Virus record (IMG/VR): IMGVR_UViG_3300033070_001565
Direction: 5' to 3' (one strand)
From: a virus
Taxonomy: Duplodnaviria > Heunggongvirae > Uroviricota > Caudoviricetes
DNA length: 23,836 bases
Under the pieces are notes generated by a model. It ran no database searches, was not told the origin of the DNA, and was given only the letters and a program-made list of their open reading frames with translations. Made by a program: the position numbers and the translations under genes. Of this stretch, positions 4,000-20,868 are shown one piece after another; position 1 is the first letter of the stretch, and every line of letters starts with the position of its first letter.

Positions 4000-4216
4000 A
4001 GTTAGAGTGTATCTTGAACAAATTTTTGGGTCCGGGGCTTGGAACATTCTTTCTGGTTCGATTCCACCAGATGAGGCAAAAAAAGTTGAGAAATCTACTG
4101 AGGACTTCGTTAGAAACTTTTGTATCCCATTCGAATCTGCAACAAAAAAGATAACAAATAATCCTGAATTGGTAGCTCAGCTGGCAAAAAAGTTGTCAGA
4201 AACAAAATTAGATTAA
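3989..4216 (+). CDS. Hypothetical protein (75 aa), possibly tail assembly/structural
   Basis: Fills the gap between TMP and the next gene: 11-nt overlap with TMP and TAATG coupling to the 4216 ORF. No recognisable motif. Confidence 0.7.
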   Translation: MDNEVRVYLEQIFGSGAWNILSGSIPPDEAKKVEKSTEDFVRNFCIPFESATKKITNNPELVAQLAKKLSETKLD

Positions 4217-6654
4217 TGGCAACTCTGACAAATGATCCAGCGGTAAAACCTGCTCGCAGAGCCACGCTGGGAACTCTTCTAAAGGTCGGACCTACTGCTA
4301 TTGCACGTGGCGCTGCAGAGCTATCGTCATTTGATTCTGGATACAACGTAACTTCAGACGGTGCGAAACTTAAATCAGTACTTCCAGGATTCACAGAGCT
4401 GGCTCTAAAAAGAGTCGAGGCACGTGAACTTGAGGCTGGAAATATTCTTGAATCTCTCCTGTCGTCGCCGGATACTGGCGTTACAGAGATTTCGATCACA
4501 GATTCATGGGGAAATATCAACTCAGATTTGCAGCCGTATGATGGTCCTCTCGTTCCAGGAGGGATGCTTGTACTCGCAACCACTCTTACGCTGGCAGTTG
4601 GAACTTCTCTTACACTACTTTCAAACCTTGCAGGAATTGCAACTGGACGACAGGTTGAACGTACCGGGCCGAACGGACGAGGCTACAAGGGAAAAAGCTA
4701 TAAATTTGCAGATGGTAATGGAGGACTATTTTCAACAGATAGCATCAAATCGTACATCACGGACGCACTTGGTATTCGTCCGACAACTCGCGATTATTTC
4801 GAATGCGTGAAAGCAGGTTTTGCAACTGTCGTTGGAGCAGATATATCTGGAGGTGGTCTTCTACAACAGCTCACGCAATCTTTCAAAAAATTGGCAGAGT
4901 CTCCTGGATATTACGTTGTTCTGTTTCGTACTGTCACTCGTGATGCTGTTAGACTTGCTGACGTTGTAAAATCAATGGGGTCATCGCCTCTTCAAATCGT
5001 TGATGGCGTCGCAGACGTGATAAGATTTATTAGAGGATCGAAGATCATCGCAATGATGAATGTTTTTGCAATGATCGGCGATCTCGCGCTTGCTGCAAAA
5101 GATGCAAGGGAGCGTATTGGAAGTCTAGACAACGAAGAGTATCCAATCGATGCTCCAAAAGCAGAGTTTATAAGAGCATATGCTGGAAATTCTGGTAAGA
5201 AGCTCGCATGGGCCGGCGATCGTGCAAGATCACATCTTTTGCTTCCTGAGAGAATTCTTGCAGCGCATCAAACATTCGCAAGGGATCGATCATACATGGC
5301 TGCAACGTCTCTCAAACTACAGAGAATGTATAATCCTGCAATTGATCACGACTCTCTAACACTCACAGATCAAGATATCAGCAACCGTGGCAGAATCGCG
5401 GATGATTTGAGAATTGAAATTGAAAAGCAACTCGATTCTCAATACGTTCCATTTTACTTTCATGATGTTAGAACAAACGAAATAATCTCGTTTCATGCAT
5501 TTTTGACATCGCTCACTGACGATTATTCTCCATCGTGGGATGGTACAGATCCGTATGGAAGAATCGATCAAGTAAAAATTTACAAAAGCACTGGTAGAAA
5601 AATATCTGTCTCGTTCTATGTTGTCGCAACGAACGAAGAAGATATGGATGAGATGTATCTGAAGATTAACAAACTTGTCACGATGGTGTACCCTCAGTGG
5701 TCTCGCGGAGATATTTTTGCAACTTCGGATGGCAACAATCGATTCACTCAACCCTTTACTCAGACTCCAACTGCGTCTCCGCTTATCAGAATGAGACTGG
5801 GAGATTTGATTCAGTCGAACTATTCAAAATTCGCGCTAGCGAGATTGTTTGGTGCAGGAGAAATAGGCGCACTCAAAATCAATGGAAATGAACTCACTCA
5901 ATCTCAGGTTGACGAAGTTTCAAAAGACATTCAAAGAGATATCGTTTCTCAATCTGAGCGTTTGCAATCATCTGGTGGCACAAACAGAATCGTATTTCAA
6001 ATAAGACCATCGTACGGGGGTGTGCCTATCGAATCAATGAGATCTGGAGGGATAAAACTGTCAATTCCTCTGCCGATTCCATCTGCTGGAGGAGGAATTG
6101 ACACGATATCATTTCCCGCTCACGAGCTCGAGGCTTTGAAAGTTAAGGTCATATCTGTGAGCTCAGATGATATGGCTGAAATTCAGTTTCAGATCAGAGA
6201 TTCATATTCAGGAAAGATTCCAACTCTTGAAGACAAGATTAATACGATTGCATCGAAAACGTATGTTGTGCCGATTCACTATCTTCAAGAGATATCAGCA
6301 TCTGATGGCACGCTTAATCCATCATCGAGTCCATATGATACGTCTGTGATCGAATTTTTCTCTGAAGAGAAGAACACGATTGTGAGATCTTTTAAATCGT
6401 CTGGTGGTAGAGGAATCGCTTGTACAATAGACTCGCTGAACCTTGACTGGTGGGATGGTAATAAAATCGGATGGGAGACGTATTCAATTGGAAAATGCGC
6501 TCCAAAGATGTGTCTTGTAAAAATAGCTATAACGCCGATCCACGATATTGCACCGGGAATCGATCACCGCGGATTCAATAGAGCTCCAGTGTATCCTGTT
6601 GGTTACTTTGGTCACGATTCAATCAAATCAGGAGAATTAGATGGCATTCAGTAG
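4216..6654 (+). CDS. Tail tube initiator / baseplate tube-fold protein (T4 gp48/gp54-, Mu gp43-, P2 gpU-like) with long N-terminal extension
   Basis: Tube-fold-like segment PFYFHDVRTNEIISFHAFLTSLTDDYSPSWDGTDPYGRIDQVKIYKSTGRKISVSFYVVA...SPLIRMRLGDLI and C-terminal half GIACTIDSLNLDW...PKMCLVKIAITPIHDIAPG. Position between TMP and the LysM gene. Confidence 0.7.
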   Translation: MATLTNDPAVKPARRATLGTLLKVGPTAIARGAAELSSFDSGYNVTSDGAKLKSVLPGFTELALKRVEARELEAGNILESLLSSPDTGVTEISITDSWGNINSDLQPYDGPLVPGGMLVLATTLTLAVGTSLTLLSNLAGIATGRQVERTGPNGRGYKGKSYKFADGNGGLFSTDSIKSYITDALGIRPTTRDYFECVKAGFATVVGADISGGGLLQQLTQSFKKLAESPGYYVVLFRTVTRDAVRLADVVKSMGSSPLQIVDGVADVIRFIRGSKIIAMMNVFAMIGDLALAAKDARERIGSLDNEEYPIDAPKAEFIRAYAGNSGKKLAWAGDRARSHLLLPERILAAHQTFARDRSYMAATSLKLQRMYNPAIDHDSLTLTDQDISNRGRIADDLRIEIEKQLDSQYVPFYFHDVRTNEIISFHAFLTSLTDDYSPSWDGTDPYGRIDQVKIYKSTGRKISVSFYVVATNEEDMDEMYLKINKLVTMVYPQWSRGDIFATSDGNNRFTQPFTQTPTASPLIRMRLGDLIQSNYSKFALARLFGAGEIGALKINGNELTQSQVDEVSKDIQRDIVSQSERLQSSGGTNRIVFQIRPSYGGVPIESMRSGGIKLSIPLPIPSAGGGIDTISFPAHELEALKVKVISVSSDDMAEIQFQIRDSYSGKIPTLEDKINTIASKTYVVPIHYLQEISASDGTLNPSSSPYDTSVIEFFSEEKNTIVRSFKSSGGRGIACTIDSLNLDWWDGNKIGWETYSIGKCAPKMCLVKIAITPIHDIAPGIDHRGFNRAPVYPVGYFGHDSIKSGELDGIQ

Positions 6655-6934
6655 ATACGCTAGATCAGCCAGATTGGGCCAGGGATCTTATCTCGGCACA
6701 TCGGCCGCTCAGATAACGATCAGGAGAGCAGTAGAGCAGAGCGCGGTCGATTACAGACAGTTTGTCTCGAGAGAGGGAGACCGTCTTGAGACGCTTGCAA
6801 ATCAGTTCTATGGATCAGGTGATCTCTGGTGGGTCATAGCAGCTGCCAGTGGCATTGGCTGGGGGCTACAGATGCCTCCAGGAACACTCTTGAATATCCC
6901 TGATATAGGTCAGGTGGCTCAACTTGTCGGGTGA
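6641..6934 (+). CDS. LysM-like baseplate wedge protein (P2 gpX / T4 gp53-like)
   Basis: REGDRLETLANQFYGSGDLWWVIAAASGI...PPGTLLNIP is a typical LysM/tail-X signature. Flanked by tube initiator and hub. Confidence 0.85.
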   Translation: MAFSRYARSARLGQGSYLGTSAAQITIRRAVEQSAVDYRQFVSREGDRLETLANQFYGSGDLWWVIAAASGIGWGLQMPPGTLLNIPDIGQVAQLVG

Positions 6935-6940
6935 TCTAAT

Positions 6941-9799
6941 ATGAACAGCGTATCGCCAGTATCGAAACTCTCTGAGATCTACAGGTACATCTCTCCGAAA
7001 GATTTTGCAGGAAATCTCGCAAACTATGATGTAACTCCATCTGGTCTCGTACCGAACAAATCTGAAGAGGTTACCGGAGACATTGTACCATTCCTTCAGG
7101 GACTTGTCGTAGAAACAAGCAACAATGGTGCTGCTTCAAATGCTGATATTATCGATTCAGTCACGGCATATCTTGCCGGCGCCTCTACTGATGTTGTCAA
7201 GGAGTTTACAAAAAGATTCCTATGCATATCTGACACGCCGGTACCATTCAACTCTGACATTCAAAAACTAAAGAATTTCAAACTTTCAACTCTTATGAAC
7301 GGAAGTGGAGAGAGAGTTGAGTGCTCTACGTACATGATCGGAACTCAGAAAGTAAACATCAATCTGAGAAACACGAATGATATCATGACATTCTCTCGTG
7401 CAATACCAACGCACGAGATGTCGAGATGTGTTCCACATCTAAGGGTACGATTTCTTTATCCATCCGACTCAAGCGGTAGAAATCCAGATGGAAAGCTGCT
7501 CTCACCAGGAATATTGAAATTTCTGAGAGGCGGGGTCAGCATCTCAGACAGATCTGCCGATCTTGCAATGACAGATCCCACGCTAAGACTCAGCGCTGAC
7601 TCTGAACTCGGTCTGACGGGCGCAGCTGCAATACGAGGGTCTTCGAACGGGGGCGGAATGGACATGTTCCTCATGCCGCAGACACTACAAAATTTCGAAG
7701 AGACTGGGCTCGTCGATGGCAGGTTCAACTCTGTAATTGATCCCACACGCCCGTTCATGTCTCTTGAGGAGCTCTCTGTGAAGTGTGTGACTCAGCAAGC
7801 AGGTATGGGTCAGTACAAGACTGCCGAGCTGTCTCTCGTTCTCCACGATAGATCACGTCTACCAGATATTGCTCATCTCATCAAGCCAGATGCTTACGGG
7901 AAGACAATGCTCGATATTGAGTACGGTTGGTCTCATCCCGACGGGATCGGAAGCGATAACATCTACGGTGAGTTTATCAACAGGATCAAATCGAGAGAGA
8001 TATACATGATCAGGAATGCTGGATACGGCATTACGAACACTGGCGAGATGAAGATAACGCTTCATCTCGCAATGAAAGGCGCGACTGAGATGCTGAGATC
8101 TCGCATAAGCCAGTTCGATTACGAGAAAGATCTGAGAGTTCTAACAAATACAATTAGCGAACTCAGGAGAGCGCTCAATCTCAGTGTGCCTGGAGATCCG
8201 AGAGTAACTCAGATTCTCGATGCAGCTGAGCGTGGTGAGAGACCTGCAGATAGTGCAAATTTTCAAAAAGAACTCGATGGACTCCTCTCTGCTCTGAGAT
8301 CGGGATCTTACGCCAGAAAAGGTACTGATGGTGCGTCTGCATCGATCGCTGGGTCTGCTGCGCAAAAACTTGCTGACAAGCTGAAAGAGTTGTATCTCAA
8401 TCCGGATCCTGGAAATACAAAATCGAAACTTACGTTCAAAGAGAGCAGACAAAAAATTGCCGTAGAGACGATCAGAAAGAAATTCGTTCAGTGCGAGACA
8501 GGAATCGACCCATTTTTCCCAGATCCCGCAGATAAGGAAAAATACCCTGCTTTTGCATACAGCCTCGACACTTATAACAAGGGTACAAAAGACGATCCAA
8601 ACGGTCGAAATTCGATCGTATCTTTTGGAAAGTTGTTCTGCACTTTCGCTCTTGGTTCCATAAGAGACACACTGAAGGAGGAGATTGATGAAATACAAGT
8701 TTTCTTTTACCCATTCAGTACCGGCGCCGGCCGTGCTAGTGGGTCTCCAATCGGAATGTTTCCGATTGAAACTTCTGTTATTGACAGAATCATGCAAGAC
8801 AGGGCTCAGAAAACGATGAACGCAGACATGAGCGTTTACGATTTTTTGAATCTCGTGAATGACAAGATTTTTTCCGATCCAAGAACATTTGCATATGGAC
8901 TCTCAGACCTCTACATGCCGAGAACTGCAGATGAAAAAGAAGCACAGCTGAATACAAAAGTTGTCAAGGATTATCCTGCGCTCTCTCGTGCTCTTGATGA
9001 GAGATTGAATCAGTTTGGTGGTACATTCAAGGCTCCTGTTATCAAGATCATTCCTGAGACATTCCCGAAGCGACTGGGTCAGTATGCAGTTGATCCTAAC
9101 AGATTGATTCTACGACTTCATGTTTTCGATGTGCAAGCTGATGCTAACGATGCTGCGATGTCAGTCCTCAAGTCGCTGTCTCTTTCACCGACTGCATTTG
9201 TACCTGGAGCATCATCTCAAGATGATAGCGTAAAGCAGTTCATCGAAAATTTCAAGACCGCAACTGCAAATCTTGTAGGTTTGGGATTCAAAGATATCTC
9301 AATTAATCAGTCATCTGTAGGAAAACAGAATTTTCTTTCCGTCGACGGAAATCCTGAGCTCATCAAGGCTGCAATTACGAAGCTACTGCCTACGATATCG
9401 ATCGGAGGAAACGCATCGATCGTTACAAACATACAGCTCAGTCCGCAGCAAAATGCTCTCATATCATCTGCAAATATGAGAGCAAACGGAGGAGGGCCCG
9501 GGTTCAGGCCCAACGGGTCAGCCGCAGGTGGCTTGCCACTCAGCGTCATACCTGGAGAGATGAGTCTGTCAACGCTGGGATGTACATGGGCGACGATTGG
9601 TCAGAGAATATTTGTCGACTTGAAAACTGGAACGCAGCTCGATAATGCATACGTGTGTACAGGGATCGATCACAAAATTGGTCCTGGAAAATTCGAAACG
9701 AACTGGAAGTTCGCGTGGTACGATGCGTACCCAGCGTATACTTCATTCGTAAGATCAATGCAACAAGTAAACAGATTGCTTGAAAAAGCTTCCGCGTGA
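6941..9799 (+). CDS. Baseplate hub protein (T4 gp27 / Mu gp44 / P2 gpD-like)
   Basis: LDIEYGWSHP motif in the N-terminal part. C-terminal EMSLSTLGCTWATIGQRIFVD...NAYVCTGIDHKIGPGKFETNWKF matches the hub-family ending. Follows the LysM gene; GGTGATC lies 4 nt before the ATG. Confidence 0.75.
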   Translation: MNSVSPVSKLSEIYRYISPKDFAGNLANYDVTPSGLVPNKSEEVTGDIVPFLQGLVVETSNNGAASNADIIDSVTAYLAGASTDVVKEFTKRFLCISDTPVPFNSDIQKLKNFKLSTLMNGSGERVECSTYMIGTQKVNINLRNTNDIMTFSRAIPTHEMSRCVPHLRVRFLYPSDSSGRNPDGKLLSPGILKFLRGGVSISDRSADLAMTDPTLRLSADSELGLTGAAAIRGSSNGGGMDMFLMPQTLQNFEETGLVDGRFNSVIDPTRPFMSLEELSVKCVTQQAGMGQYKTAELSLVLHDRSRLPDIAHLIKPDAYGKTMLDIEYGWSHPDGIGSDNIYGEFINRIKSREIYMIRNAGYGITNTGEMKITLHLAMKGATEMLRSRISQFDYEKDLRVLTNTISELRRALNLSVPGDPRVTQILDAAERGERPADSANFQKELDGLLSALRSGSYARKGTDGASASIAGSAAQKLADKLKELYLNPDPGNTKSKLTFKESRQKIAVETIRKKFVQCETGIDPFFPDPADKEKYPAFAYSLDTYNKGTKDDPNGRNSIVSFGKLFCTFALGSIRDTLKEEIDEIQVFFYPFSTGAGRASGSPIGMFPIETSVIDRIMQDRAQKTMNADMSVYDFLNLVNDKIFSDPRTFAYGLSDLYMPRTADEKEAQLNTKVVKDYPALSRALDERLNQFGGTFKAPVIKIIPETFPKRLGQYAVDPNRLILRLHVFDVQADANDAAMSVLKSLSLSPTAFVPGASSQDDSVKQFIENFKTATANLVGLGFKDISINQSSVGKQNFLSVDGNPELIKAAITKLLPTISIGGNASIVTNIQLSPQQNALISSANMRANGGGPGFRPNGSAAGGLPLSVIPGEMSLSTLGCTWATIGQRIFVDLKTGTQLDNAYVCTGIDHKIGPGKFETNWKFAWYDAYPAYTSFVRSMQQVNRLLEKASA

Positions 9800-12587: not shown

Positions 12588-13799
12588 ATGGCAGCCAAGA
12601 AAAAAGAATTCATCCCGGTTCTTAACGAAGCGGTCGACGGTATTGATGCCGCGTCGACCGCTGAGTTCGTTAAGCAGATTAACCGTGAGATGGGAGACCG
12701 TGTAGCATTCAATCTCGCGGAGGGAGAGGCACCAACAATCATCAAGCGTTGGATTCCGACCGGTTCCACTCTCATTGATTACATGATCGCGAATCGTAAA
12801 GGCGGAGGTCTACCAGAGGGAAGAATCATCGAACTCTCGGGCATGCCCTCAACTGGCAAGTCTCACATTGCGTACGAGATTGCAAAGAACGTGCAGAAAA
12901 TGGGCGGTCTCGTCGTGTACATCGACACTGAGAATGCGACTCAGATCGATAAACTCCATGAGATGGGTCTCGATGTCAGGAACCGTTTTATCTACTGCGA
13001 TACGCACTGCACGGAGGAGGTCTTCGAACTCATTGAGAAGACGATCACGAAAGCAAAGCAAGTCATTGGGAAGAAGAACGTTCCATTTCTTGTCATTTGG
13101 GACTCTGTCGCTTCGACATCACCAAAAGCAGAACTAGAGGGAAATTACGATAAGGACACAATCGGTCTCCAGGCGAGGGTTATCAGTAAATGCATGAGGA
13201 AAATTACGGGAGTACTCGGTGAGAATAATGTAACCCTTCTGTGTCTCAACCAACTCAGGACGAAGATTGGTGAGATGTTCGGAGATCCCATGTCATCTCC
13301 TGGAGGAAACGCTATTCCATTCCACTCAAGTGTGAGATTGAGACTTTCTTCTGGTCAGCCAGTCAAGAACAAGAAGGGCGAAATCATCGGGATCAAGGTG
13401 ATTGTCACTCTCAAGAAGAACAAGGTTGCATATCCTCACCGCAAGTGCGAATTCGAGATTCATTTCGGACGCGGAATCTATGAATCAGAAGCACTATTCG
13501 ATGTGCTCAGAGAGTGGTGCATTGAGCACACAGGAGCAAAGATCGGAGATGCGTACGTTTCGGTCAGCGGTGATGGTGCATGGAAAGAGCTCATTGTCGC
13601 AACAAAAGATGGAGAAGTACTTGTTGAAAAGAAGTTCTATAAACACGAGTTCAGCGAGGTAATGTCTGATCCGAAATACCTCCCCTACGTATCAGTACTC
13701 ATTGATGCTGCGCTTGTAATAAAGCCAGACCTAGGTACACAAACAAATAATGGAAGCCCATCAGAAGGTGAATCAGACACCACAGCAGCCCCAAACTAA
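12588..13799 (+). CDS. recA: RecA/UvsX-like recombinase
   Basis: IPTGS..ID, GGLPEGRIIELSGMPSTGKS (Walker A), YIDTENA, LVIWDSVA (Walker B), LQARVISKCMRK, LNQLRTKIG.MFGDP..SPGGNAIPFHSSVRLRL, KNKVAYP. Confidence 0.97.
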   Translation: MAAKKKEFIPVLNEAVDGIDAASTAEFVKQINREMGDRVAFNLAEGEAPTIIKRWIPTGSTLIDYMIANRKGGGLPEGRIIELSGMPSTGKSHIAYEIAKNVQKMGGLVVYIDTENATQIDKLHEMGLDVRNRFIYCDTHCTEEVFELIEKTITKAKQVIGKKNVPFLVIWDSVASTSPKAELEGNYDKDTIGLQARVISKCMRKITGVLGENNVTLLCLNQLRTKIGEMFGDPMSSPGGNAIPFHSSVRLRLSSGQPVKNKKGEIIGIKVIVTLKKNKVAYPHRKCEFEIHFGRGIYESEALFDVLREWCIEHTGAKIGDAYVSVSGDGAWKELIVATKDGEVLVEKKFYKHEFSEVMSDPKYLPYVSVLIDAALVIKPDLGTQTNNGSPSEGESDTTAAPN

Positions 13800-14211
13800 C
13801 GTCAGGATTCAGCTCATAGACAGTGGCTGTGCTCTCGAAAAGGGAACACAGCAATCTAGCGGTTGGGATCTCAAATCTCGTGTTGACATTACGATTCCGA
13901 ACGGTTCAACTTGTAGAATTCCTGTTGGAATCTCTCTTGGACTCCCAAATTTTTGGGAGGCCCAAATCAGATCTCGCTCATCCTCGCGATCGAAAAGAAT
14001 GATTGTTGAGTGGGGAACGATCGATGCAGATTATAGGGGAGAGGTAGAAGTACAGGTAACCGCAGACAAGGGTCCCGTGAAGATAGAAAAATATCAGAGG
14101 ATCGCACAGCTTGTTTTTGTACCCGTTCCACCTGTAAATTTGCAGTATACAACTGACGTGATTGGTGAAGTTACAGAAAGAATTGGCGGTTTCGGTTCAA
14201 CTGGCTCGTAA
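13750..14211 (+). CDS. dut: Trimeric dUTPase
   Basis: All five motifs present: SSGWDL, IRSRSS, GTIDADYRGEV, RIAQLV, RIGGFGSTG. Confidence 0.93.
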   Translation: MEAHQKVNQTPQQPQTNVRIQLIDSGCALEKGTQQSSGWDLKSRVDITIPNGSTCRIPVGISLGLPNFWEAQIRSRSSSRSKRMIVEWGTIDADYRGEVEVQVTADKGPVKIEKYQRIAQLVFVPVPPVNLQYTTDVIGEVTERIGGFGSTGS

Positions 14212-14314: not shown

Positions 14315-15268
14315 ATGTCAGAACCCTCTCCTAGGCCGATTCTTCTCGTTGACGGTCTCAATCTGTTCATAAGATGCTGGTGCGCGTATCCTGCTGTCTC
14401 AACTCATGGTGGGCAGCTGGGAGGCGTTGTCGGGTTTCTGAAAACTCTCAACAGGCTCGTGTCTGATAATTCTCCACAGAGAGTCATCATCGCATGGGAG
14501 GCTGGCGGATCTCTGCGTCGCAGAGGAATAGACCCCAATTACAAGAACCAGCGCCGACCTGAGAAGCTCAACAGATTTTATGGAGATGATATCCCTGAGA
14601 CACACGAGAATTGGCAGCACCAGCTCACAAGTCTTGTGAAGATATCAGAGTGTCTCCCGGTCACTCAGGTTTATGTCGAGGACTGTGAGGGAGATGACGT
14701 AATATCGTACTGTGCAACATCGATCAGAGGAGTCAACAAGATCATTGTCTCATCAGACAAAGATTTTTATCAGCTCCTTGACTCAGAAACAAAACAGTAC
14801 TCTCCTCACAAAAAGTGTTTCATAACTCAGGATGACGTTCTGAGAGACTTTTCGATTCATCCTTGCAACTTTGCAATCGCGAAGGCAATCTGCGGAGATC
14901 CTGGAGATAACGTTTCAGGAGTCCCACGAGTGGGATTCAAGAGTCTCGCAAAACATTTTGACATTCTTAAATCGAGCACGCCACTCATTCTTCCCGACGT
15001 TGAAACTTGGGCTGCTGCTCATAGAGATGAGTCTGCAATCATCAAGAGAGTGTGGGAAAACTGGGATATTGTCCAGAAGAATTGGAAACTTGTCTTTCTT
15101 GGAATTGGCGCTCTATCTCCACAGCAGATAAAGAGGATTGATCAATGTTTGGGAGTGGTACCACAACCAAGTCTGGTCAAGTACTTCGGACTGCTAAAAG
15201 AGATCGGAACATCTGACATTGGAGTACATTCCACGTTCCAAACGCTGAAGCAAATAGGTGATAATTGA
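14315..15268 (+). CDS. 5'-3' exonuclease / flap endonuclease (T4 RNase H / PolI N-terminal family)
   Basis: LLVDGLNLF, IIAWE..GS.RR....YK.QR, EGDDVI, SSDKDFYQLL, GDPGDNVSGVPRVGFKS (helix-3-turn-helix). Confidence 0.92.
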   Translation: MSEPSPRPILLVDGLNLFIRCWCAYPAVSTHGGQLGGVVGFLKTLNRLVSDNSPQRVIIAWEAGGSLRRRGIDPNYKNQRRPEKLNRFYGDDIPETHENWQHQLTSLVKISECLPVTQVYVEDCEGDDVISYCATSIRGVNKIIVSSDKDFYQLLDSETKQYSPHKKCFITQDDVLRDFSIHPCNFAIAKAICGDPGDNVSGVPRVGFKSLAKHFDILKSSTPLILPDVETWAAAHRDESAIIKRVWENWDIVQKNWKLVFLGIGALSPQQIKRIDQCLGVVPQPSLVKYFGLLKEIGTSDIGVHSTFQTLKQIGDN

Positions 15269-16029
15269 CTGAGAATTTTGGTAAGTACGGTATCGATTTC
15301 CAAGAAAAGATTATGCAAGCTCTGCTCGTTGATCGAGCATGGGCTCAGCAGATGATGGAGGTGTTCAAACCAGATTTCTTTGAGAGAAAGCATCTCGTTT
15401 ACCTTTCGAACAGATACTTCGAGTACTGGAAGCAATACAAAGTCTTTCCGACATTTGAACTTCTCGTTGTCATCATCAAAGATGAGCTGAAGTCTGGTAT
15501 TGACGCTGAATTGAGAATTCAGATTGTCGATTATCTCAAGCGCATTAAAGATAATCCCAACTCTGAAGATCTTTCCTACGTGAAGGATAAGTCTCTCGAT
15601 TTCTGTAAGCGTCAGGGATTGAAGACTGCAATGCTCGAGGCAATCGAGCTGATCGAAGATCAGCGTTACGAGCCCGTTGTCGATATCATCAAGAAGGCTG
15701 TCTCTGCGGGTACATGCGAGTCTCTGGGACACGATTTCTTCGAAGACAGAGATGCTCGCTACGTTGAAGATTACCGTGAGTGCGTTCCAACCGGCATTCC
15801 GGAACTCGATTCAAAGGGTGTTTTCAATGGTGGATTGGGCAAGGGTGAACTCGGAATTGTCATTGGTGGCACCGGCGCAGGAAAATGCACTCAGAAGAAC
15901 GCCACTGTAAACATCAGGTATACAGCGATTGATATCGATGGTACGATTTACAATCCATGGGATATCGTATCAACGAGAAGAGGAAAGATTCTTGCAAAAG
16001 ATGTCACGTCAAGAGACGAACTCATCTGA
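15265..16029 (+). CDS. dnaB: DnaB/gp41-like replicative helicase, N-terminal part (207-aa N-extein) fused to a 47-aa N-intein
   Basis: TTG start coupled to the upstream stop (TTGA). DnaB N-domain, then VPTGIPELD...GGLGKGELGIVIGGTGAGK followed by C at codon 208 (15886) where Walker A needs S/T. Stop at 16029. Confidence 0.9.
   Translation: MTENFGKYGIDFQEKIMQALLVDRAWAQQMMEVFKPDFFERKHLVYLSNRYFEYWKQYKVFPTFELLVVIIKDELKSGIDAELRIQIVDYLKRIKDNPNSEDLSYVKDKSLDFCKRQGLKTAMLEAIELIEDQRYEPVVDIIKKAVSAGTCESLGHDFFEDRDARYVEDYRECVPTGIPELDSKGVFNGGLGKGELGIVIGGTGAGKCTQKNATVNIRYTAIDIDGTIYNPWDIVSTRRGKILAKDVTSRDELI
15886..16026 (+). mobile_element. Split intein N-fragment (IntN, 47 aa)
   Basis: CTQKNATVNIRY is block A with Cys1, inserted at the Walker A GK|S site. 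No block B before the stop codon. Confidence 0.8.
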
Positions 16030-17119
16030 ACAGATTCCGGAGTGTCAGATCTGCGGAATGACTTCACGCAATCTGATTACTCACATTACACGTACTCACA
16101 AGATCTCATGCAGTGAGTACGCTTCACAATATCCAGGTTCAAAAATTTTTCTTGTTAGGAAAAAAGAAAAGAAGCTTTCGCAGAGGCAGCAGCATGTAAT
16201 TGAACTCAAATCGCTTGGTACGAGTCCGCTTACGTGCAGACTGTGTGGATTCGAGTCTTACATGTCACTCACCTCGCACATTACGAAAATTCATAAATTT
16301 TCGATGGCTGAGTACAGAAAAAAGTTTCCAGAAGATGTTATTCAACGAGGCTGTCCGACAACAAATGAAAAGAACAGAATCGCACAAAAAGAACGTTTGA
16401 AAAATCCTGATTTGCGTGAAAAATGGGACAAGCAAAGATTTCTTCCTCCTACCATGAAGGAATTTTGGATAAAAAAGGGTCTGTCTGAGACAGACGCGGA
16501 AATAAAAGCGCGTGAAATGCGCGATAGAATATCAAAAATTCCTGTTAGCGCTTCAACACGATCAAAACTGTCAGAAAAATCGCGTGGAATTAAAAATCCA
16601 ATGTCGATTGAATCCATTGCGGCTCGTCATCATGTTACGCCCGATGAAGCGAGCGCATTCACTCCGTGTTATCGTCGCAGTGGAAGTTTGCATCCCATGT
16701 ACGGAAAACATCATACTGAAGAAAGTCTACAGAAAATTGCAAACGCAGATCATCTAAAACGTCCAAAATGGTCGTCGAAGGGTGAAAAAGAACTAGCGAA
16801 TTTTTGCAATTCTCTAGGCGTTACGTATGAAAACGTAAAAATTGGAAGATATAACGTAGATGTTCTATTCGCTGAAAAGAAATTGATCGTTGAGTACTTT
16901 GGAGATCTATGGCATATGTCTCCTAGGCGGTTCGAAAAAGATCAGTACCATTACTTGACACGAAAAACTGCATGTCAAGTATGGGAAAGAGATCACAAAA
17001 AGATGGAGAATTTTGTATCAATAGGATACAAAATTCTCGTAATCTGGGAATCAGATTGGAAAAATGATAGAGTTTCTTGCGAAGAAAAGATTACCGATGC
17101 CTACAATCAAGCACGTTGA
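16001..17119 (+). mobile_element. Free-standing homing endonuclease: two C2H2-like Zn fingers, NUMOD3, Vsr/DUF559-like (EDxHD-type) nuclease
   Basis: CQICG...HITRTH and CRLCG...HITKIH, each followed by EY...(Y/F)P; EFWIKKGLSETDA; HPMYGKHHTEESLQKI (NUMOD3); SKGEKEL...VDVL...IVEYFGDLWH...RDHKK...GYKILVIWESDW. Frame is open from TTG 15929; ATG 16001 is the likelier start. Visibly more AT-rich than flanking genes. Confidence 0.85.
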
Positions 17120-18404
17120 AATTACTCGTACGGTTAGTCTCGAAGATCTTTTTGCTGAATTGGGATGTTCTGAGAAAGATGCACCTAACACTGAAGACGG
17201 TGACACGCTCATCAAATGCGATTATCCGATTGAAGTTGAATCTTCGAACGGCTATCAATTCATCAGTGCCGTGAGATGGACAAAACATGAACCGGTAATC
17301 AAACTAATCGTGAAATCCGAGATCGATGAAAAAAGTGTATCTCTCGGTTGCTCTCCTGAGCATCGTGTCATGACAAAACGCGGGTGGAAATATGTAAAAA
17401 ATCTTTTCGAAGATGATTACGTGTACACAAAGGACGAATGGATGAGAGTTGAGTCTTTGAAGGGACTCGATGAACTGGAACGTCTCTGTGATATGCAAGT
17501 TGATATTACTCACTGCTACTACACAAACGGGATCCTATCTCACAACTCGCATCTTCTTGTTAACCTCGGTGCAAATGCAATCAAGGCAGGTCTCAATGTT
17601 CTTCACTACACATTCGAGCTCTCAGAGCACCAAGTATCTCGCAGATACGATGCAAACATCTGCGAGATCAATGCTGACGATCTTTCTGAGAAGAAAGCAG
17701 ATGTCTTTGCTCACTACGATGCTGGCACGAAGTACGGAAAGCTGAGAGTAAAGTACAAGCCAACCGGCACAGCAACGATTCTCACAATCAGAGCTCACGT
17801 AGAGGCGCTAGCTCTCCGTGGATTTGTACCTGATCTCATCATTATCGACTATGCAGATATCATGCGTTCGACGAGACAGTTCGACAGTCTCAGGCATGAG
17901 CTCAAGCAAGTCTATGAGGATCTCAGAGGGTACTCTGGTGAACTTGGCGTGCCCATCTGGACTGCTTCCCAATCGAATAAAGAGGGCGTCAACTCTGACT
18001 TCATCGATGAAACGAACATGTCTGAGGGTTACGCAAAGGCGTTTGTCGCTGACATTATCGTTACAATCTCAAGGAAGCCAGTTGAACGTCACTCCGGTCT
18101 GGGAAGGCTATACGTTGCCAAATCACGCGCAGGTAGAGATGGTCAGCTTTATCCCATCAAAATTGATACTGCGCAGTCTAGATTCGTAATCCTCGGCGAG
18201 GTACAGTCCCCATCTCAGGTGGCGACAGAGGATGACAAGAGTTTGAAAGCTTCCATTCGAGAAAAATGGAACAAGGTAAAGAAGGACGCTGAGTTGGCTC
18301 TCGGGCCAAATCTCAATGAAACCGTGGCTCAGCAACCGGCAGTGCAACAGCAATTAGGAAAAAGAAATGGAAAATACGATCTACACATACGCACAAGTGT
18401 ATGA
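17064..18404 (+). CDS. dnaB: DnaB/gp41-like helicase, C-terminal part (IntC plus 285-aa C-extein); start at 17064 or 17097
   Basis: After HN|S: SHLLVNLG...VLHYTFELSE, LIIIDYADIM (Walker B), LRGYSGELGVPIWTASQSNKEG, EGYAKAFVADIIVTI, RLYVAKSRAGRDG. Confidence 0.9.
   Translation: MIEFLAKKRLPMPTIKHVEITRTVSLEDLFAELGCSEKDAPNTEDGDTLIKCDYPIEVESSNGYQFISAVRWTKHEPVIKLIVKSEIDEKSVSLGCSPEHRVMTKRGWKYVKNLFEDDYVYTKDEWMRVESLKGLDELERLCDMQVDITHCYYTNGILSHNSHLLVNLGANAIKAGLNVLHYTFELSEHQVSRRYDANICEINADDLSEKKADVFAHYDAGTKYGKLRVKYKPTGTATILTIRAHVEALALRGFVPDLIIIDYADIMRSTRQFDSLRHELKQVYEDLRGYSGELGVPIWTASQSNKEGVNSDFIDETNMSEGYAKAFVADIIVTISRKPVERHSGLGRLYVAKSRAGRDGQLYPIKIDTAQSRFVILGEVQSPSQVATEDDKSLKASIREKWNKVKKDAELALGPNLNETVAQQPAVQQQLGKRNGKYDLHIRTSV
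17097..17546 (+). mobile_element. Split intein C-fragment (IntC, about 150 aa)
   Basis: TVSLEDLF and IEVESSNGYQFI (post-block-A Hint strands), block B LGCSPEHRVMTKRGW, block F LCDMQVDITHCYYTNG, block G ILSHN followed by +1 Ser (17547). Confidence 0.85.
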
Positions 18405-20868
18405 GAATGCATTGGCATACTACGGAAACGATCTTGCTGCAGATGCATATACATCGAAGTACGCTCTCAGAAATGTAGAAGGTGAGCTCATCGAGAGCGG
18501 TCCACTTGCCTCGTACATGCGTCAGGCAAGGGAGCTCGCAAGGATTGAGTCGAAATATCCGAAGTCCGCCTCTCTCGATGAGATCTATAAGGCTTTTATC
18601 GCCGGAGAGATCTCAATGCAGGGATCTCCATTCTCCGGTATTGGAAACGATCAACAGTATCAGTCTCTTTCAAATTGCTTCGTTATTGCCGGTCCAGAGG
18701 ACTCCTACGGGGGTATTTTCAGGGCCGACGAACAGCAGGCGCAGATCATGAAGCGTCGTGGAGGGGTTGGTCACGATCTTTCTGGCCTCCGCCCAAGGGG
18801 CTTTTTGACAACGAACGCAGCAAGGTCATCAGATGGTGTTACTCTGTTCATGCAGAGATTTTCGAACACAACGAGAGAGGTCGCGCAAGAGGGTCGAAGA
18901 GGCGCACTCATGATGACTGTGTCAGTACATCATCCCGATGTTGCTGAATTCATTACGATCAAACAAGATCGTAAGAAGGTCACAGGCGCAAACGTCTCAG
19001 TGAGAATTACTGACGAGTTCATGCAAGCTGTCATTTGCGATGGTTGTTATGAGCAGCGCTGGCCCGTTGAGGACACGGAACCAAAATTCAAACGTCTTGT
19101 GAGGGCTCGCGAGATTTGGGATCTCATTATCTCATCTGCACACAAATGCGCGGAACCTGGCGTTCTGTTCTGGGACACAATCATCAGGAACTCGCCGGCA
19201 GACGTGTATCCTGGCTTTAGAACTCGTTCGACGAATCCTTGCTCAGAACTTCCTCTATCTGTTGGAGACAGCTGCCGTCTTGCAATCACGAACAGTTTTG
19301 CATTCGTGAAAAACGCGTTCACAGACTCTGCTGAGTTTGACTGGGATCGTTTCAGGTCGGCTGCGGCTCTAACCCAGAGACTCATGGACGATCTCGTTGA
19401 TCTTGAAATCGAATCTGTCGATAGGATCATCGGTAAGGTTGAGTCAGATCCAGAGCCACTCAGTGTCAAAGAGAGAGAGCTTGCTCTATGGAAGGTTATC
19501 CGTCAGTCTGCACGTGATGGCCGTCGTACAGGGGCTGGTCTTACTGGAGTTGGTGATACAGTGGCTGCTCTGGGCCTGAGATATGGATCAGATGAGTCAA
19601 TCAAATTCATTGATGAGCTATACCGTGTCCTTTGTGTTGAGTCATACAGTGAATCAGTGAGGATGGCATCCCAGCGTGGATCATTCCCTGCTTGGAACGC
19701 CGAAACAGACTCGAAGTCAACTCACGTTAGGAAGATGCTTGAACAGATGACTGAAGAACTGAGAGACCTGTACGGTCAGTATGGCAGGAGGAACATCGCC
19801 TGCAATACAACTGCTCCCGTTGGCACAATCTCTCTGCTTCTTGGCACTACGTCAGGGATTGAGCCTGCATTCATGCTCTCTTACAAGCGTCGCAGAAAGG
19901 TGCAAGCTGGCGATCCGAATGTTAGGGTCGACTTCGTCGACGAGACGGGAGACTCATGGCAAGAGTATGTCGTCTATCACCCTGGATTTGAACTGTGGAT
20001 GTCCGCTTCAGGTAAGACAGAGGTGTCAGATTCCCCATATGCTGGTGCAACTGCTAATGAGATCGATTGGAAGAAATCGATCGAGCTACAGGCGGCTGCT
20101 CAGAAGTGGATTGATCATGCTATCTCGAGAACTGTCAACCTGCCAGCAGGAACTCCAGTAGAAGTTGTTGACGAACTCTACAGAACTGCATGGGCAAGCG
20201 GGTGCAAGGGATGCACAATCTACGTTGATGGATCACGTTCTGGCGTGCTCATCAGCACAGAGACTCCAAATCCGTGCTCATCTGGTCGTCCTGATGAACT
20301 TACTCACGTGCAAGCTACGAAGCGACCAGAGAAACTGCCATGCGTTCTTGGAAAGGTGAGAGTTTCAGTTCTCAGAGACGAGAGTACGAAGCGATCAGCA
20401 GAAACATGGTGCGTGCTTGTTAGCACTCTCGGTGGAAAACCCTATGAGGTCTTTGCAGGACTGGCAAAGGACTTCAGGGTTGGTGATTCGCACACAGATC
20501 TCAAGATCAGAAAAGTCAAATTGAAGACGACTGCCGGCGCCAGGTACGAGCTCATTGGAGATGGGAAGGTTCTCGTACGTGATATCACTGCAAAATTTGA
20601 CGACCCAACAGGGGGCTCATTCACACGCGTTGTTTCTCTATCTCTGAGACACGGTGTGCCCGTTCAATTCGTCGTTGAACAGCTCATGAAGGATCGCGAT
20701 AGCGATATGTTCTCTCTTGCAAAGGCGATTGCAAGAACTCTGAAGCAATTCATTCCTGATGGTACGGAATCAACTGAGAAGAAATGTCAAGAGTGCGGAT
20801 CTGACAAGCTCATCTATCAAGAGGGCTGTGTTAGCTGTACTCAGTGCTCATTCTCAAAGTGCGGTTAA
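18367..20868 (+). CDS. nrdJ: Class II (adenosylcobalamin-dependent) ribonucleotide reductase
   Basis: SLSNCFVI, KRRGGVGHDLSGLRP, VAQEGRRGALM, GANVSV, AEPGVLF, TNPCSE, SCRL, RRTGAGLTG, APVGTIS..SGIEP, QKWIDHAISRTVNLP, GCKGCTIY, then a TSCPD-like domain and C-terminal Zn ribbon CQECG...CVSCTQCSFSKCG. No beta-subunit gene is adjacent. Confidence 0.93.
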   Translation: MENTIYTYAQVYENALAYYGNDLAADAYTSKYALRNVEGELIESGPLASYMRQARELARIESKYPKSASLDEIYKAFIAGEISMQGSPFSGIGNDQQYQSLSNCFVIAGPEDSYGGIFRADEQQAQIMKRRGGVGHDLSGLRPRGFLTTNAARSSDGVTLFMQRFSNTTREVAQEGRRGALMMTVSVHHPDVAEFITIKQDRKKVTGANVSVRITDEFMQAVICDGCYEQRWPVEDTEPKFKRLVRAREIWDLIISSAHKCAEPGVLFWDTIIRNSPADVYPGFRTRSTNPCSELPLSVGDSCRLAITNSFAFVKNAFTDSAEFDWDRFRSAAALTQRLMDDLVDLEIESVDRIIGKVESDPEPLSVKERELALWKVIRQSARDGRRTGAGLTGVGDTVAALGLRYGSDESIKFIDELYRVLCVESYSESVRMASQRGSFPAWNAETDSKSTHVRKMLEQMTEELRDLYGQYGRRNIACNTTAPVGTISLLLGTTSGIEPAFMLSYKRRRKVQAGDPNVRVDFVDETGDSWQEYVVYHPGFELWMSASGKTEVSDSPYAGATANEIDWKKSIELQAAAQKWIDHAISRTVNLPAGTPVEVVDELYRTAWASGCKGCTIYVDGSRSGVLISTETPNPCSSGRPDELTHVQATKRPEKLPCVLGKVRVSVLRDESTKRSAETWCVLVSTLGGKPYEVFAGLAKDFRVGDSHTDLKIRKVKLKTTAGARYELIGDGKVLVRDITAKFDDPTGGSFTRVVSLSLRHGVPVQFVVEQLMKDRDSDMFSLAKAIARTLKQFIPDGTESTEKKCQECGSDKLIYQEGCVSCTQCSFSKCG

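What the first reader, a model, noticed from the sequence alone, without database searches (positions are those of the whole stretch)
15265..18404. Fractured DnaB helicase joined by an atypically split intein (short IntN, long IntC)
Seen: the helicase Walker A is interrupted (GGTGAGK|CTQK... and ...LSHN|SHLL). The intein is in two ORFs, a 47-aa piece with only block A and a roughly 150-aa piece with blocks B, F and G. Splicing would give a 492-aa DnaB (207+285) with intact GTGAGKS, so splicing is obligatory for ATPase function. Known: fractured phage genes with split inteins around a Vsr-like endonuclease have been described (e.g. gp41-1), but those split between blocks B and F (long N, short C). 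Splits after block A are rare and known to me mainly from TerL-type inteins (AceL-TerL, GOS-TerL) and VidaL. Inference: this is a natural trans-splicing, atypically split intein in a replicative helicase. It could be a new orthogonal protein-ligation tool and a post-translational checkpoint on phage replication.
Basis: partly seen in the sequence, partly recalled or inferred. Interest (0 to 1): 0.88.

Follow-up and report, generated by a model that had tools for sequence, protein, structure and literature searches.

The report
Phage helicase gene split by intein
An uncultured aquatic phage encodes its replicative helicase in two pieces that an unevenly split self-splicing protein element (47-residue front half, 150-residue back half) must join, with a selfish nuclease gene between them; this is real, but it is one more member of a known and common kind.

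Summary
ORF A (15265-16029) is 207 aa of DnaB/gp41-like helicase ending GTGAGK, followed by a 47-aa IntN. ORF C carries a 150-aa IntC (17097-17546) ending SHN, then SHLL and 285 aa of helicase. Between them lies a free-standing Vsr-like/EDxHD homing endonuclease gene (16001-17119).

Intein-less relatives read GxGK|SH[FLW]L across exactly this junction. The same three-ORF layout occurs in 13 distinct IMG/VR loci at only 31-56% identity, with every class-1 splicing residue invariant. Three loci have lost the endonuclease yet stay split. Assemblies from four studies show no indels.

The split lies in the beta2-beta3 hairpin, the S1 position of VidaL, which is the closest solved structure. Here it follows a family-specific beta-rich insert of about 33 aa, so IntN is 47-72 aa in this clade. 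The literature gives 15-37 aa for natural atypical split inteins. Contiguous relatives exist both with and without the insert.

Best reading: an obligatory trans-splicing, atypically split class-1 intein in a fractured gene, a new member of a known kind. This scan has already noted the same arrangement on other DNA, including a 47/148-aa case. Splicing itself is untested.

The parts
15265..15885 (+). Helicase N-extein. It is 207 codons of the DnaB/gp41-like N-terminal domain plus the first half of Walker A, ending GTGAGK.
   Evidence: phrog_19 profile positions 159-366, E 1.3e-20. tblastn to 80 related loci at 49-58% identity.
15886..16029 (+). IntN, 47 codons plus stop. It holds Cys1, block A / beta1-beta2 (CTQKNATVNIRY) and a 35-aa conserved beta-rich extension ending DELI.
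   Evidence: Exactly 47 aa in 13 of 14 distinct loci, with invariant C1, W, T, RG and D. dN 0.18 against dS 2.9 for the closest pair. Predicted to pair with the IntC N-terminus.
16001..17119 (+). Free-standing homing endonuclease gene, 372 aa from ATG 16001 (start inferred). It has two ROS/MucR-like zinc fingers, a NUMOD3 motif and a C-terminal Vsr-like/EDxHD nuclease. It overlaps IntN by 29 nt and IntC by 23 nt.
   Evidence: Pfam NUMOD3 33.9 bits (cutoff 20.4), ROS_MUCR 27.1 (cutoff 25.4), MTES_1575 25.2 (below its cutoff of 38.2). PHROG homing endonuclease families. Invariant D...E..G..WH...D...W..DW. AlphaFold2 model best matches the I-Bth0305I catalytic domain 3r3p (E 1e-3, TMt 0.79), then Vsr 1cw0/1vsr. 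Start codons examined.
17097..17546 (+). IntC, 150 codons. It holds beta3, helix alpha1 (SLEDLFAEL), block B (SPEH), block F (DMQVDITH) and block G (SHN).
   Evidence: Conserved M-[LP]-[ST]-I start with an AAGGA-like box upstream, and in several loci a stop codon directly before it. Invariant H89, D132, H139, S148-H149-N150. Pfam Intein_splicing 3.8e-5. PDB profile hits are gp41-1, NrdJ-1 and VidaL.
17547..18404 (+). Helicase C-extein, 285 codons plus stop. It starts with Ser+1, which is the Walker A serine, and contains the DnaB_C ATPase domain.
   Evidence: Pfam DnaB_C 8.2e-11. phrog_19 positions 369-601, E 3.3e-45. Intein-less alleles read GxGK|SH[FLW]L.

Best explanation
The phage's DnaB/gp41-like replicative helicase gene is a 'fractured gene'. 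A class-1 intein sits between the Lys and Ser of the Walker A P-loop. A free-standing Vsr-like/EDxHD homing endonuclease gene has been lodged inside the intein-coding sequence, so the intein is made as two polypeptides.

- ORF A yields N-extein-IntN (207 + 47 aa).
- ORF C yields IntC-C-extein (150 + 285 aa).

The break lies at the tip of the first beta-hairpin (beta2/beta3), topologically the S1 site used by VidaL and PolB16. It comes after a clade-specific beta-rich insert of about 33 residues, which stays with IntN.

Inferred mechanism:
1. IntN strand 6-16 and its DELI tail zip antiparallel onto the first 15 residues of IntC, completing the HINT fold.
2. Cys1 forms the thioester.
3. Ser+1 attacks.
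4. Asn150 cyclises.
5. A 492-aa helicase with an intact GTGAGKS P-loop is released.

Without splicing the ATPase site cannot form. The endonuclease presumably cuts intein-less helicase alleles and drives homing of the whole cassette.

Shown here: the gene anatomy, its conservation, purifying selection, intact catalytic residues, absence of assembly indels, and the fold and interface predictions. Inferred, not shown: actual trans-splicing, the endonuclease's target, and any regulatory role.
For: (1) Anatomy and exact junction.

(2) Intein-less homologues of 470-486 aa read GxGKSH[FLW]L exactly where N- and C-exteins abut.

(3) Thirteen distinct IMG/VR loci (15 loci in all) share the split intein at 31-56% identity, eleven of them with the full N-fragment / endonuclease / C-fragment layout. 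More distant loci L081, L085, L088, L089 and L090 share the full layout too, and L084 has the split without the endonuclease. Twenty-one further 90%-identity clusters of 255-272-aa N-fragments are in the protein collection.

(4) Cys1, block B His, block F Asp/His, the terminal His-Asn and Ser+1 are invariant.

(5) Selection:
- IntN dN/dS is about 0.06 in the closest pair.
- SNPs of a sludge-derived variant fall at third codon positions of ORFs A and C.

(6) L007, L016 and L084 have lost the endonuclease. They keep a stop after IntN, a spacer and a separate IntC start.

(7) The IntC start Met is conserved, with an SD-like box upstream and often a stop one codon before it.

(8) Contigs of four runs from four studies show no insertion or deletion. 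Two of them span the whole 3.1 kb with no difference.

(9) Complex prediction on IntN against IntC:
- Score 0.87, best of 3 controls 0.02.
- This mark was reached by 58 of 80 solved complexes and 2 of 110 mismatched pairs. The counts hold only roughly, because my own alignments were used.
- The runs agree in at least 88% of contacts, and the partner's pLDDT is at least 82.
- Split-intein complexes are solved, so the pass may come from likeness to them.

(10) AlphaFold2 model of the contiguous relative P0003 (pLDDT 87):
- It has a long beta2 (model residues 12-22) and beta3 (49-58) hairpin bearing a three-strand insert.
- Foldseek's best match is VidaL 6vgv (E 2.6e-9, TMt 0.85).
Against: - No biochemical or proteomic evidence of the ligated product exists.
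- The block B threonine is not conserved (S/A in SPEH, ADNH, AEEH).
- At 47 aa, IntN is longer than any characterised natural atypical IntN (15-37 aa per PMC13014065), so its behaviour cannot be read off from known examples.
- The endonuclease start codon is inferred, and one relative (L008) has no canonical start before its first zinc finger.
- The whole genome is not held, so a second, intact helicase elsewhere cannot be excluded.
Confidence: 0.85

Rival explanations
1. The element is a decaying or non-splicing relic. The two halves are made but no longer ligate. The helicase is then either dead, with replication relying on another helicase, or held together only non-covalently by the intein halves.
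For: Splicing is untested. The block B Thr is replaced. The whole genome is not available to look for a second helicase. Endonuclease decay occurs in relatives: a frameshift in L010 and loss in L007, L016 and L084.
Against: Every catalytic residue is invariant over 14 sequences at 31-56% identity. There is strong purifying selection on IntN and on both exteins. A Walker A loop interrupted between Lys and Ser by about 200 residues is not expected to bind ATP; PMC6195587 makes this argument for P-loop inteins. Loci without the endonuclease still keep intact halves.
Confidence: 0.07
2. The three ORFs are read as one contiguous precursor, a cis-splicing intein with an embedded endonuclease domain. 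This would need two programmed +1 ribosomal frameshifts, or RNA splicing of the endonuclease segment.
For: The frames step +1 then +1 in all endonuclease-bearing loci, and both junctions are overlapping ORFs.
Against: - The IntC frame has a stop one codon before its conserved ATG in several loci, together with an SD-like box.
- Endonuclease-less loci have IntN and IntC in the same frame separated by two stops (L007), or in a different frame relation (L016).
- No Rfam intron or frameshift element is found in 15200-18500.
- Contigs from RNA libraries are colinear with the DNA and show no joint. This is weak, because contigs drop rare forms.
- The constant +1/+1 relation is explained by common descent of overlapping junctions.
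Confidence: 0.03
3. It is an assembly or sequencing artefact: two indel errors broke a normal cis intein.
For: The source is a metagenomic assembly, and two single-base indels would fuse the frames.
Against: Four independent runs from four studies show no indel. Two of them span the whole region identically. The same layout is seen in more than 13 diverged contigs from unrelated samples.
Confidence: 0.01

Closest known systems
VidaL atypically split intein (PDB 6vgv/6vgw; 16-aa IntN; Burton et al. 2020 and Neugebauer et al. 2017, as cited in PMC13014065)
   Same: It is the closest solved structure to the contiguous relative's model (Foldseek E 2.6e-9, TMt 0.85). The profile match is E 1.1e-12. 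It is Cys-dependent and ends ..SH(N)|S. It is split in the beta2/beta3 hairpin, the S1 position (PMC13014065).
   Different: Identity is only about 16%. VidaL's IntN is 16 aa with no insert. Here a conserved module of 33 to about 55 aa follows beta2, so IntN is 47-72 aa. VidaL's host gene could not be verified in the held literature. My recollection that it is a 'T4-like helicase' is from memory only.
gp41-1 to gp41-9 fractured helicase loci and their split inteins (Dassa et al. 2009, PMC2677866; PDB 6qaz)
   Same: These are phage gp41/DnaB-like helicase genes fractured by a split intein, with a free-standing Vsr-like endonuclease gene (some with NUMOD3) between the halves. One allele has lost the endonuclease, as L007, L016 and L084 have here. 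It is the best sequence match in the PDB (E 2.2e-13).
   Different: The gp41-1 inteins are canonically split, with a long IntN and a short IntC. In gp41-1 to gp41-7 the intein sits at another site (position 356 of P-SSM2 gp41). The T4-type late promoter and RBS-sequestering hairpin reported there were not found here.
AceL-TerL / GOS-TerL / Cat atypical split inteins (Thiel 2014; Bachmann and Mootz 2015; reviewed in PMC11766414)
   Same: They are natural short-IntN inteins of metagenomic phages that sit in a P-loop ATPase (the terminase). CatC is a detectable relative (E 6.4e-7).
   Different: They are split after helix alpha1 (the S2 site), with IntN of 25-37 aa (PMC13014065). Here helix alpha1 belongs to IntC.
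PolB16 OarG intein (PMC10189870; PDB 8cpn)
   Same: It has an S1-type natural atypical split and a long IntC (168 aa). It is detectable by profile (E 1.8e-6).
   Different: It uses Ser1/Ser+1 (cysteine-independent), has a 15-aa IntN, and its host is a PolB polymerase.
Mycobacterial DnaB intein DnaBi1 at P-loop insertion site b (PMC6195587)
   Same: The intein is inserted in the DnaB P-loop, so the Walker A Ser is also the +1 nucleophile.
   Different: It is a contiguous class 3 mini-intein of a cellular DnaB, not split, and has no endonuclease gene.
I-Bth0305I / EDxHD (Vsr-like) homing endonucleases (PDB 3r3p)
   Same: It is the best structural match of the nuclease domain of ORF B (E 1e-3, TMt 0.79). 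ORF B has the E..G(D).WH...D motif.
   Different: ORF B adds two ROS/MucR-like zinc fingers and NUMOD3 helices at its N-terminus. Its activity and target are untested.

Membership tests
Class 1 intein (HINT domain) | Cys/Ser at position 1, and Ser/Thr/Cys at +1 | tested here: met
   Cys1 follows GAGK and Ser+1 follows SHN. Both are invariant in 14 sequences.
Class 1 intein (HINT domain) | Block B TxxH, block F Asp/His, block G His-Asn | tested here: met
   H89, D132, H139 and H149-N150 are invariant. The block B Thr is replaced by S or A.
Class 1 intein (HINT domain) | HINT fold | tested here: met
   The model of cis relative P0003 has pLDDT 87. The top 50 Foldseek PDB hits are inteins, BIL or hedgehog HINT domains. 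This is a prediction, not a solved structure.
Class 1 intein (HINT domain) | Protein splicing activity | not testable with these tools
   Needs expression of the halves and detection of the ligated product.
Naturally split intein / fractured gene (Dassa et al. 2009) | The intein halves lie on separate ORFs, each fused to one half of the host protein, and this is not an artefact. | tested here: met
   There is a stop after IntN and a conserved Met plus SD for IntC. The layout is conserved in 13 or more diverged loci. Four independent assemblies show no indels.
Naturally split intein / fractured gene (Dassa et al. 2009) | A free-standing homing endonuclease gene lies between the halves (Vsr-like or GIY-YIG). 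| tested here: met
   ORF B matches NUMOD3 and MTES_1575/DUF559-like families. The motif is conserved. The fold matches I-Bth0305I and Vsr.
Naturally split intein / fractured gene (Dassa et al. 2009) | An RBS-sequestering hairpin or T4-type late promoter (TATAAATA) upstream of the endonuclease; reported for many, not all, loci. | tested here: not met
   The window contains no TATAAATA. The region around the endonuclease start folds no better than shuffles, z -0.17.
Naturally split intein / fractured gene (Dassa et al. 2009) | The halves associate. | tested here: inconclusive
   Complex prediction scored 0.87 against a best control of 0.02. That mark was reached by 58 of 80 solved complexes and 2 of 110 mismatched pairs. 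Contact agreement between runs is at least 88%, and the partner's pLDDT is at least 82. This is a model's confidence and may reflect likeness to solved split inteins.
Atypically split intein (short IntN, long IntC) | The split is N-terminal to block B, so IntC carries blocks B, F and G. | tested here: met
   IntN is 47 aa and holds block A only. IntC is 150 aa and holds B, F and G.
Atypically split intein (short IntN, long IntC) | The split is at a known natural site: S1 (after beta2) or S2 (after alpha1). | tested here: met
   Helix alpha1 (SLEDLFAEL) and beta3 are in IntC, and beta2 is in IntN. IntN residues 6-16 pair with IntC residues 4-15. This is S1-equivalent, but the break comes after an inserted module.
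Atypically split intein (short IntN, long IntC) | IntN of 15-37 aa, as in all characterised natural members (PMC13014065) | tested here: not met
   IntN is 47 aa here and 47-72 aa across the clade.
VidaL intein family | Close sequence relationship and the same host or insertion site | tested here: inconclusive
   The profile E-value of 1.1e-12 is no better than that of gp41-1, and identity is about 16%. VidaL's host gene was not retrievable.

The most novel reading that the evidence does not exclude
The conserved beta-rich insert of 33 to about 55 residues at the tip of the beta2/beta3 hairpin may be a functional module in its own right, with the split placed just after it. One possibility is a pre-folded docking 'zipper' that allows an S1-type split with a structured, self-soluble IntN. 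Another is a DNA-contacting element that cooperates with the free-standing endonuclease. Either way it would define a third natural class of atypical split site, with assembly behaviour and orthogonality distinct from VidaL/PolB16 (S1) and TerL (S2) inteins.
Probability: 0.25. Interest if true: 0.55.

Novelty: new member of a known kind. Interest (0 to 1): 0.4.

Why it matters

This locus belongs to a large, unannotated clade of phage helicase P-loop inteins. The clade has natural cis forms, split forms and endonuclease-less forms, which together make a ready comparative series for three questions:
- how a split arises at the first hairpin;
- what the extra IntN module contributes to fragment association;
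- whether the pairs are orthogonal to existing tools.

Biologically, it shows an essential replication ATPase that can only form after protein trans-splicing. It is not a new principle.

Tried and rejected
- **Nucleotide search of 50,697 phage records:** no match.
- **tblastn of ORF C in the same collection:** no record covers 80% or more of the query. The two hits that seemed to reach into the intein are ordinary intein-less helicases, and the extension was alignment noise: Agrobacterium phage Atu_ph07 (query 38-356) and Microcystis phage Mel-JY01 (query 137-403).
- **Whole genome:** not held, so no search for a second helicase was possible.
- **Rfam, permissive threshold, on 15200-18500:** nothing, so no sign of a group I/II intron or a recoding element.
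- **T4-type late promoter TATAAATA:** absent from the window.
- **RNA structure around the endonuclease start:** no better than shuffles.
- **Sigma-70-like and terminator-like scan:** not above shuffles.
- **VidaL's host gene and the Burton 2020, Sekar 2022 and Bachmann 2015 papers:** could not be read or found in the held library.
- **Metatranscriptome runs X1-X3:** they hold the stretch as long DNA-colinear contigs. This shows neither transcription nor absence of RNA splicing.
- **Conserved ATG 92 nt before the IntN stop, in the endonuclease frame:** it is explained by the conserved (D/N)-G codons of IntN, so it was not taken as the endonuclease start.
- **The 14-bp hairpin at 17006-17038:** not conserved in relatives, so it is not treated as part of the system.

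Full report
**Observation**

The region holds three same-strand ORFs whose frames step +1 and +1.

- ORF A (15265-16029) encodes 207 aa that match the N-terminal part of DnaB-like phage helicases and end in GGTGAGK. Forty-seven further residues follow (CTQKNATVNIRY...SRDELI), then a stop.
- ORF C encodes an intein C-terminal region ending GILSHN, followed by SHLLVNLGAN... and 285 aa of DnaB_C ATPase domain (Pfam 8.2e-11).
- The PHROG helicase profile phrog_19 is matched at positions 159-366 by ORF A and 369-601 by ORF C. The two ORFs are therefore consecutive pieces of one helicase, broken between the Lys and Ser of Walker A.
- ORF B, between them, matches NUMOD3 above Pfam's cutoff, a ROS/MucR-type zinc finger, and MTES_1575/DUF559 nuclease families below cutoff. 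It also matches PHROG homing-endonuclease families.

**Not an artefact, not chance**

A scan of IMG/VR with ORF C returned 479 relatives, of which 80 loci were kept. tblastn with the five parts gave the following:

- Sixty-five loci are intein-less helicases in which the N-extein match ends at query residue 207 and the C-extein match starts at residue 1 on the very next codon.
- Fifteen loci (13 distinct sequences) carry IntN and IntC. Thirteen of them (11 distinct) also have the endonuclease between the halves, always in +1/+1 frames. Intein identities are only 31-55%.
- The intein-less ORFs are 470-486 aa and read GxGKSH[FLW]L at the junction. This is exactly what splicing of the window's halves would give (GAGK|SHLL, 492 aa).

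Contigs from four sequencing runs of four different studies were laid on the stretch.

- Two runs hold all 3,140 bases in one contig with no difference and no gap.
- A riverine run and a sludge run cover the A/B junction, and no run shows an insertion or deletion.
- The sludge variant differs by SNPs that fall at third codon positions of ORFs A and C.

In the 5.8-billion-protein collection, 21 further clusters are 255-272-aa N-fragments covering 98-100% of ORF A. None has a name.

**The halves are separate genes under selection**

- IntN is exactly 47 aa in 13 of 14 distinct loci, with invariant Cys1, Trp, Thr, Arg-Gly and Asp.
- IntC starts at a conserved M-[LP]-[ST]-I, which is 17097 in the window rather than the first ATG at 17064. 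An AAGGA-like box precedes it, and in several loci a stop codon lies one codon upstream in the same frame.
- In IntC the block B His, the block F Asp and His, the terminal Ser-His-Asn and Ser+1 are invariant.
- For the closest pair of IntN sequences, dN is 0.18 and dS is 2.9.
- L007 and L016 have lost the endonuclease. L007 keeps only the last few codons of it. Both still have a stop after IntN, a spacer with stops and a separate IntC start. L084 is the same.
- No RNA family matches the region.

These points argue against sequencing errors, programmed frameshifting and RNA splicing as ways of making a contiguous precursor.

**Where the split lies**

A full-library HMMER search with IntC alone found two kinds of relative: other N-terminal IntC-helicase fragments, and contiguous inteins at the same GK|C site.

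- P0006, P0036 and P0080 are mini-inteins of 147-163 aa with a plain hairpin, for example CVDPRECVSIRY-RTGD-EVILEDIELGKLF.
- P0003, P0012 and P0058 are 183-195 aa and carry an extra module after beta2. In P0003 it reads ...IKINGQSYKPWDKINTQRGTIYAKDIKE-VERSLTEEDIEIGDLF.

The AlphaFold2 model of P0003 residues 206-408 (pLDDT 87, pTM 0.82) shows:

- a long beta2 (model residues 12-22) paired with beta3 (49-58);
- three short strands (25-41) at the hairpin tip;
- helix alpha1 (59-65) after beta3.

The window's IntN ends, and its IntC begins, between that insert and beta3.

The two-chain prediction agrees. IntN residues 6-16 run antiparallel to IntC residues 4-15, and the IntN tail touches IntC residues 1-16.

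- The score is 0.87, and the best of 3 controls is 0.02.
- This mark was reached by 58 of 80 solved complexes and 2 of 110 mismatched pairs. The counts hold only roughly, because my own alignments were used.
- The runs agree in at least 88% of contacts, and the partner's pLDDT is at least 82.
- Split-intein complexes are solved, so this pass may come from likeness to them. It shows compatibility, not binding.

The split is thus topologically the S1 site, after beta2. PMC13014065 assigns that site to VidaL and PolB16, in contrast to the S2 site (after alpha1) of AceL-TerL and GOS-TerL. The same paper gives 15-37 aa as the range of natural atypical IntN fragments. In this clade IntN is 47, 48, 54, 58, 63, 66 or 72 aa, because the insert stays with IntN.

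IntC is strongly acidic (net -9 to -18). IntN is neutral to basic (net -1 to +5).

**Relatives among solved structures**

- By profile, the nearest PDB sequences are gp41-1 (2.2e-13) and VidaL (1.1e-12), then Spl DnaX, CatC and NrdJ-1.
- By fold, VidaL 6vgv is best (E 2.6e-9, TMt 0.85, rmsd 3.1), followed by gp41-1.
- Identity is about 16%, so this is a related but distinct family.
- I could not verify VidaL's host gene in the held literature. My memory that it is a T4-like helicase is only a lead.
- The P-loop of DnaB is a known intein insertion site in which the Walker A serine doubles as the +1 nucleophile (PMC6195587).

**The endonuclease**

- Twelve homologues align with an invariant D...E..G..WH...D...W..DW.
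- The AlphaFold2 model (pLDDT 79 overall, above 90 in the C-terminal domain) best matches the catalytic domain of I-Bth0305I (3r3p, E 1e-3, TMt 0.79), then Vsr (1cw0, 1vsr).
- This is the Vsr-like family that Dassa et al. 2009 (PMC2677866) described in fractured genes, some members with NUMOD3 motifs.
- Its start codon lies inside the IntN tail, with an overlap of 14-38 nt in relatives. In the window it is ATG 16001, a 29-nt overlap. Its stop overlaps the IntC start by 23 nt.
- The promoter and hairpin features reported by Dassa et al. were not found here.

**Context**

The flanking genes are:

| Gene | Evidence |
|---|---|
| UvsX-like recombinase | |
| dUTPase-like ORF (13750-14211), called from its sequence only | |
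| 5'-3' exonuclease | |
| Ribonucleotide reductase | |
| Thymidylate synthase | |

This is the replication module of a large uncultured phage. Near-identical sequence is seen in wastewater, river and bioreactor samples.

**Verdict**

It is a fractured-gene, naturally and atypically split class-1 intein.

The specific features that go beyond the characterised examples are:

- the clade-specific hairpin insert, which gives a 47-72-aa IntN;
- the coexistence of cis, split and endonuclease-less forms.

The principle is known (PMC2677866, PMC13014065, PMC10189870). The arrangement is common in viral metagenomes, and this scan has already flagged it on other DNA. Trans-splicing, the endonuclease target and any regulatory role remain untested.

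Noticed in passing
window 17006-17038: A perfect 14-bp inverted repeat (GAGAATTTTGTATC-AATAG-GATACAAAATTCTC) lies inside the 3' end of the endonuclease gene, about 60 nt upstream of the IntC start. The 111-nt region folds well beyond shuffles (z -3.19). It is not conserved in related loci; L004 and L006 have only 6-7-bp stems at a similar offset.
   Followed up: partly
P0002, P0003, P0005 (relatives): Some relatives carry a second intein further along the same helicase, at WTA|CFHGDT...VKN|SQSNKEG. In P0003 and P0005 it has a large HNH-like insert. In P0002 and P0005 the helicase would therefore need one trans-splicing and one cis-splicing event.
   Followed up: no
P0057 and P0040: IntC-like domains also sit at the N-terminus of a RecA/UvsX-like fragment (P0057...SHN|TTTGGNGLKFYASIR) and of a terminase-large-subunit-like protein (P0040). 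Atypically split inteins therefore also appear to occur in other phage P-loop ATPases.
   Followed up: no
L070/L071 2625-3375; L021 1570-2067 and 8352-8672; L085 6413-8182; L089 5024-5581: Related phage contigs carry further intein or endonuclease pieces in neighbouring replication genes. In L070/L071 a Vsr-like ORF is followed by a short (about 38 aa) IntC-like match, which looks like a canonical split. L085 and L089 have HINT-bearing genes downstream, and in L089 that gene is a ribonucleotide reductase with an intein.
   Followed up: no
L008 4899-4974: In this relative the endonuclease frame is open only from 4899 and has no ATG, GTG or TTG before the first zinc-finger cysteines. Its start is non-canonical, or the gene is decaying. 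L010's endonuclease is frameshifted.
   Followed up: partly
window 18367-18404: The ribonucleotide reductase ORF (18367-20868) overlaps the 3' end of the helicase C-fragment by 38 nt. The whole replication block is tightly packed, with overlapping ORF ends.
   Followed up: no
window 1-9799: Three very large ORFs (1314, 812 and 952 aa) upstream of the replication block have no PHROG match at E 1e-5.
   Followed up: no
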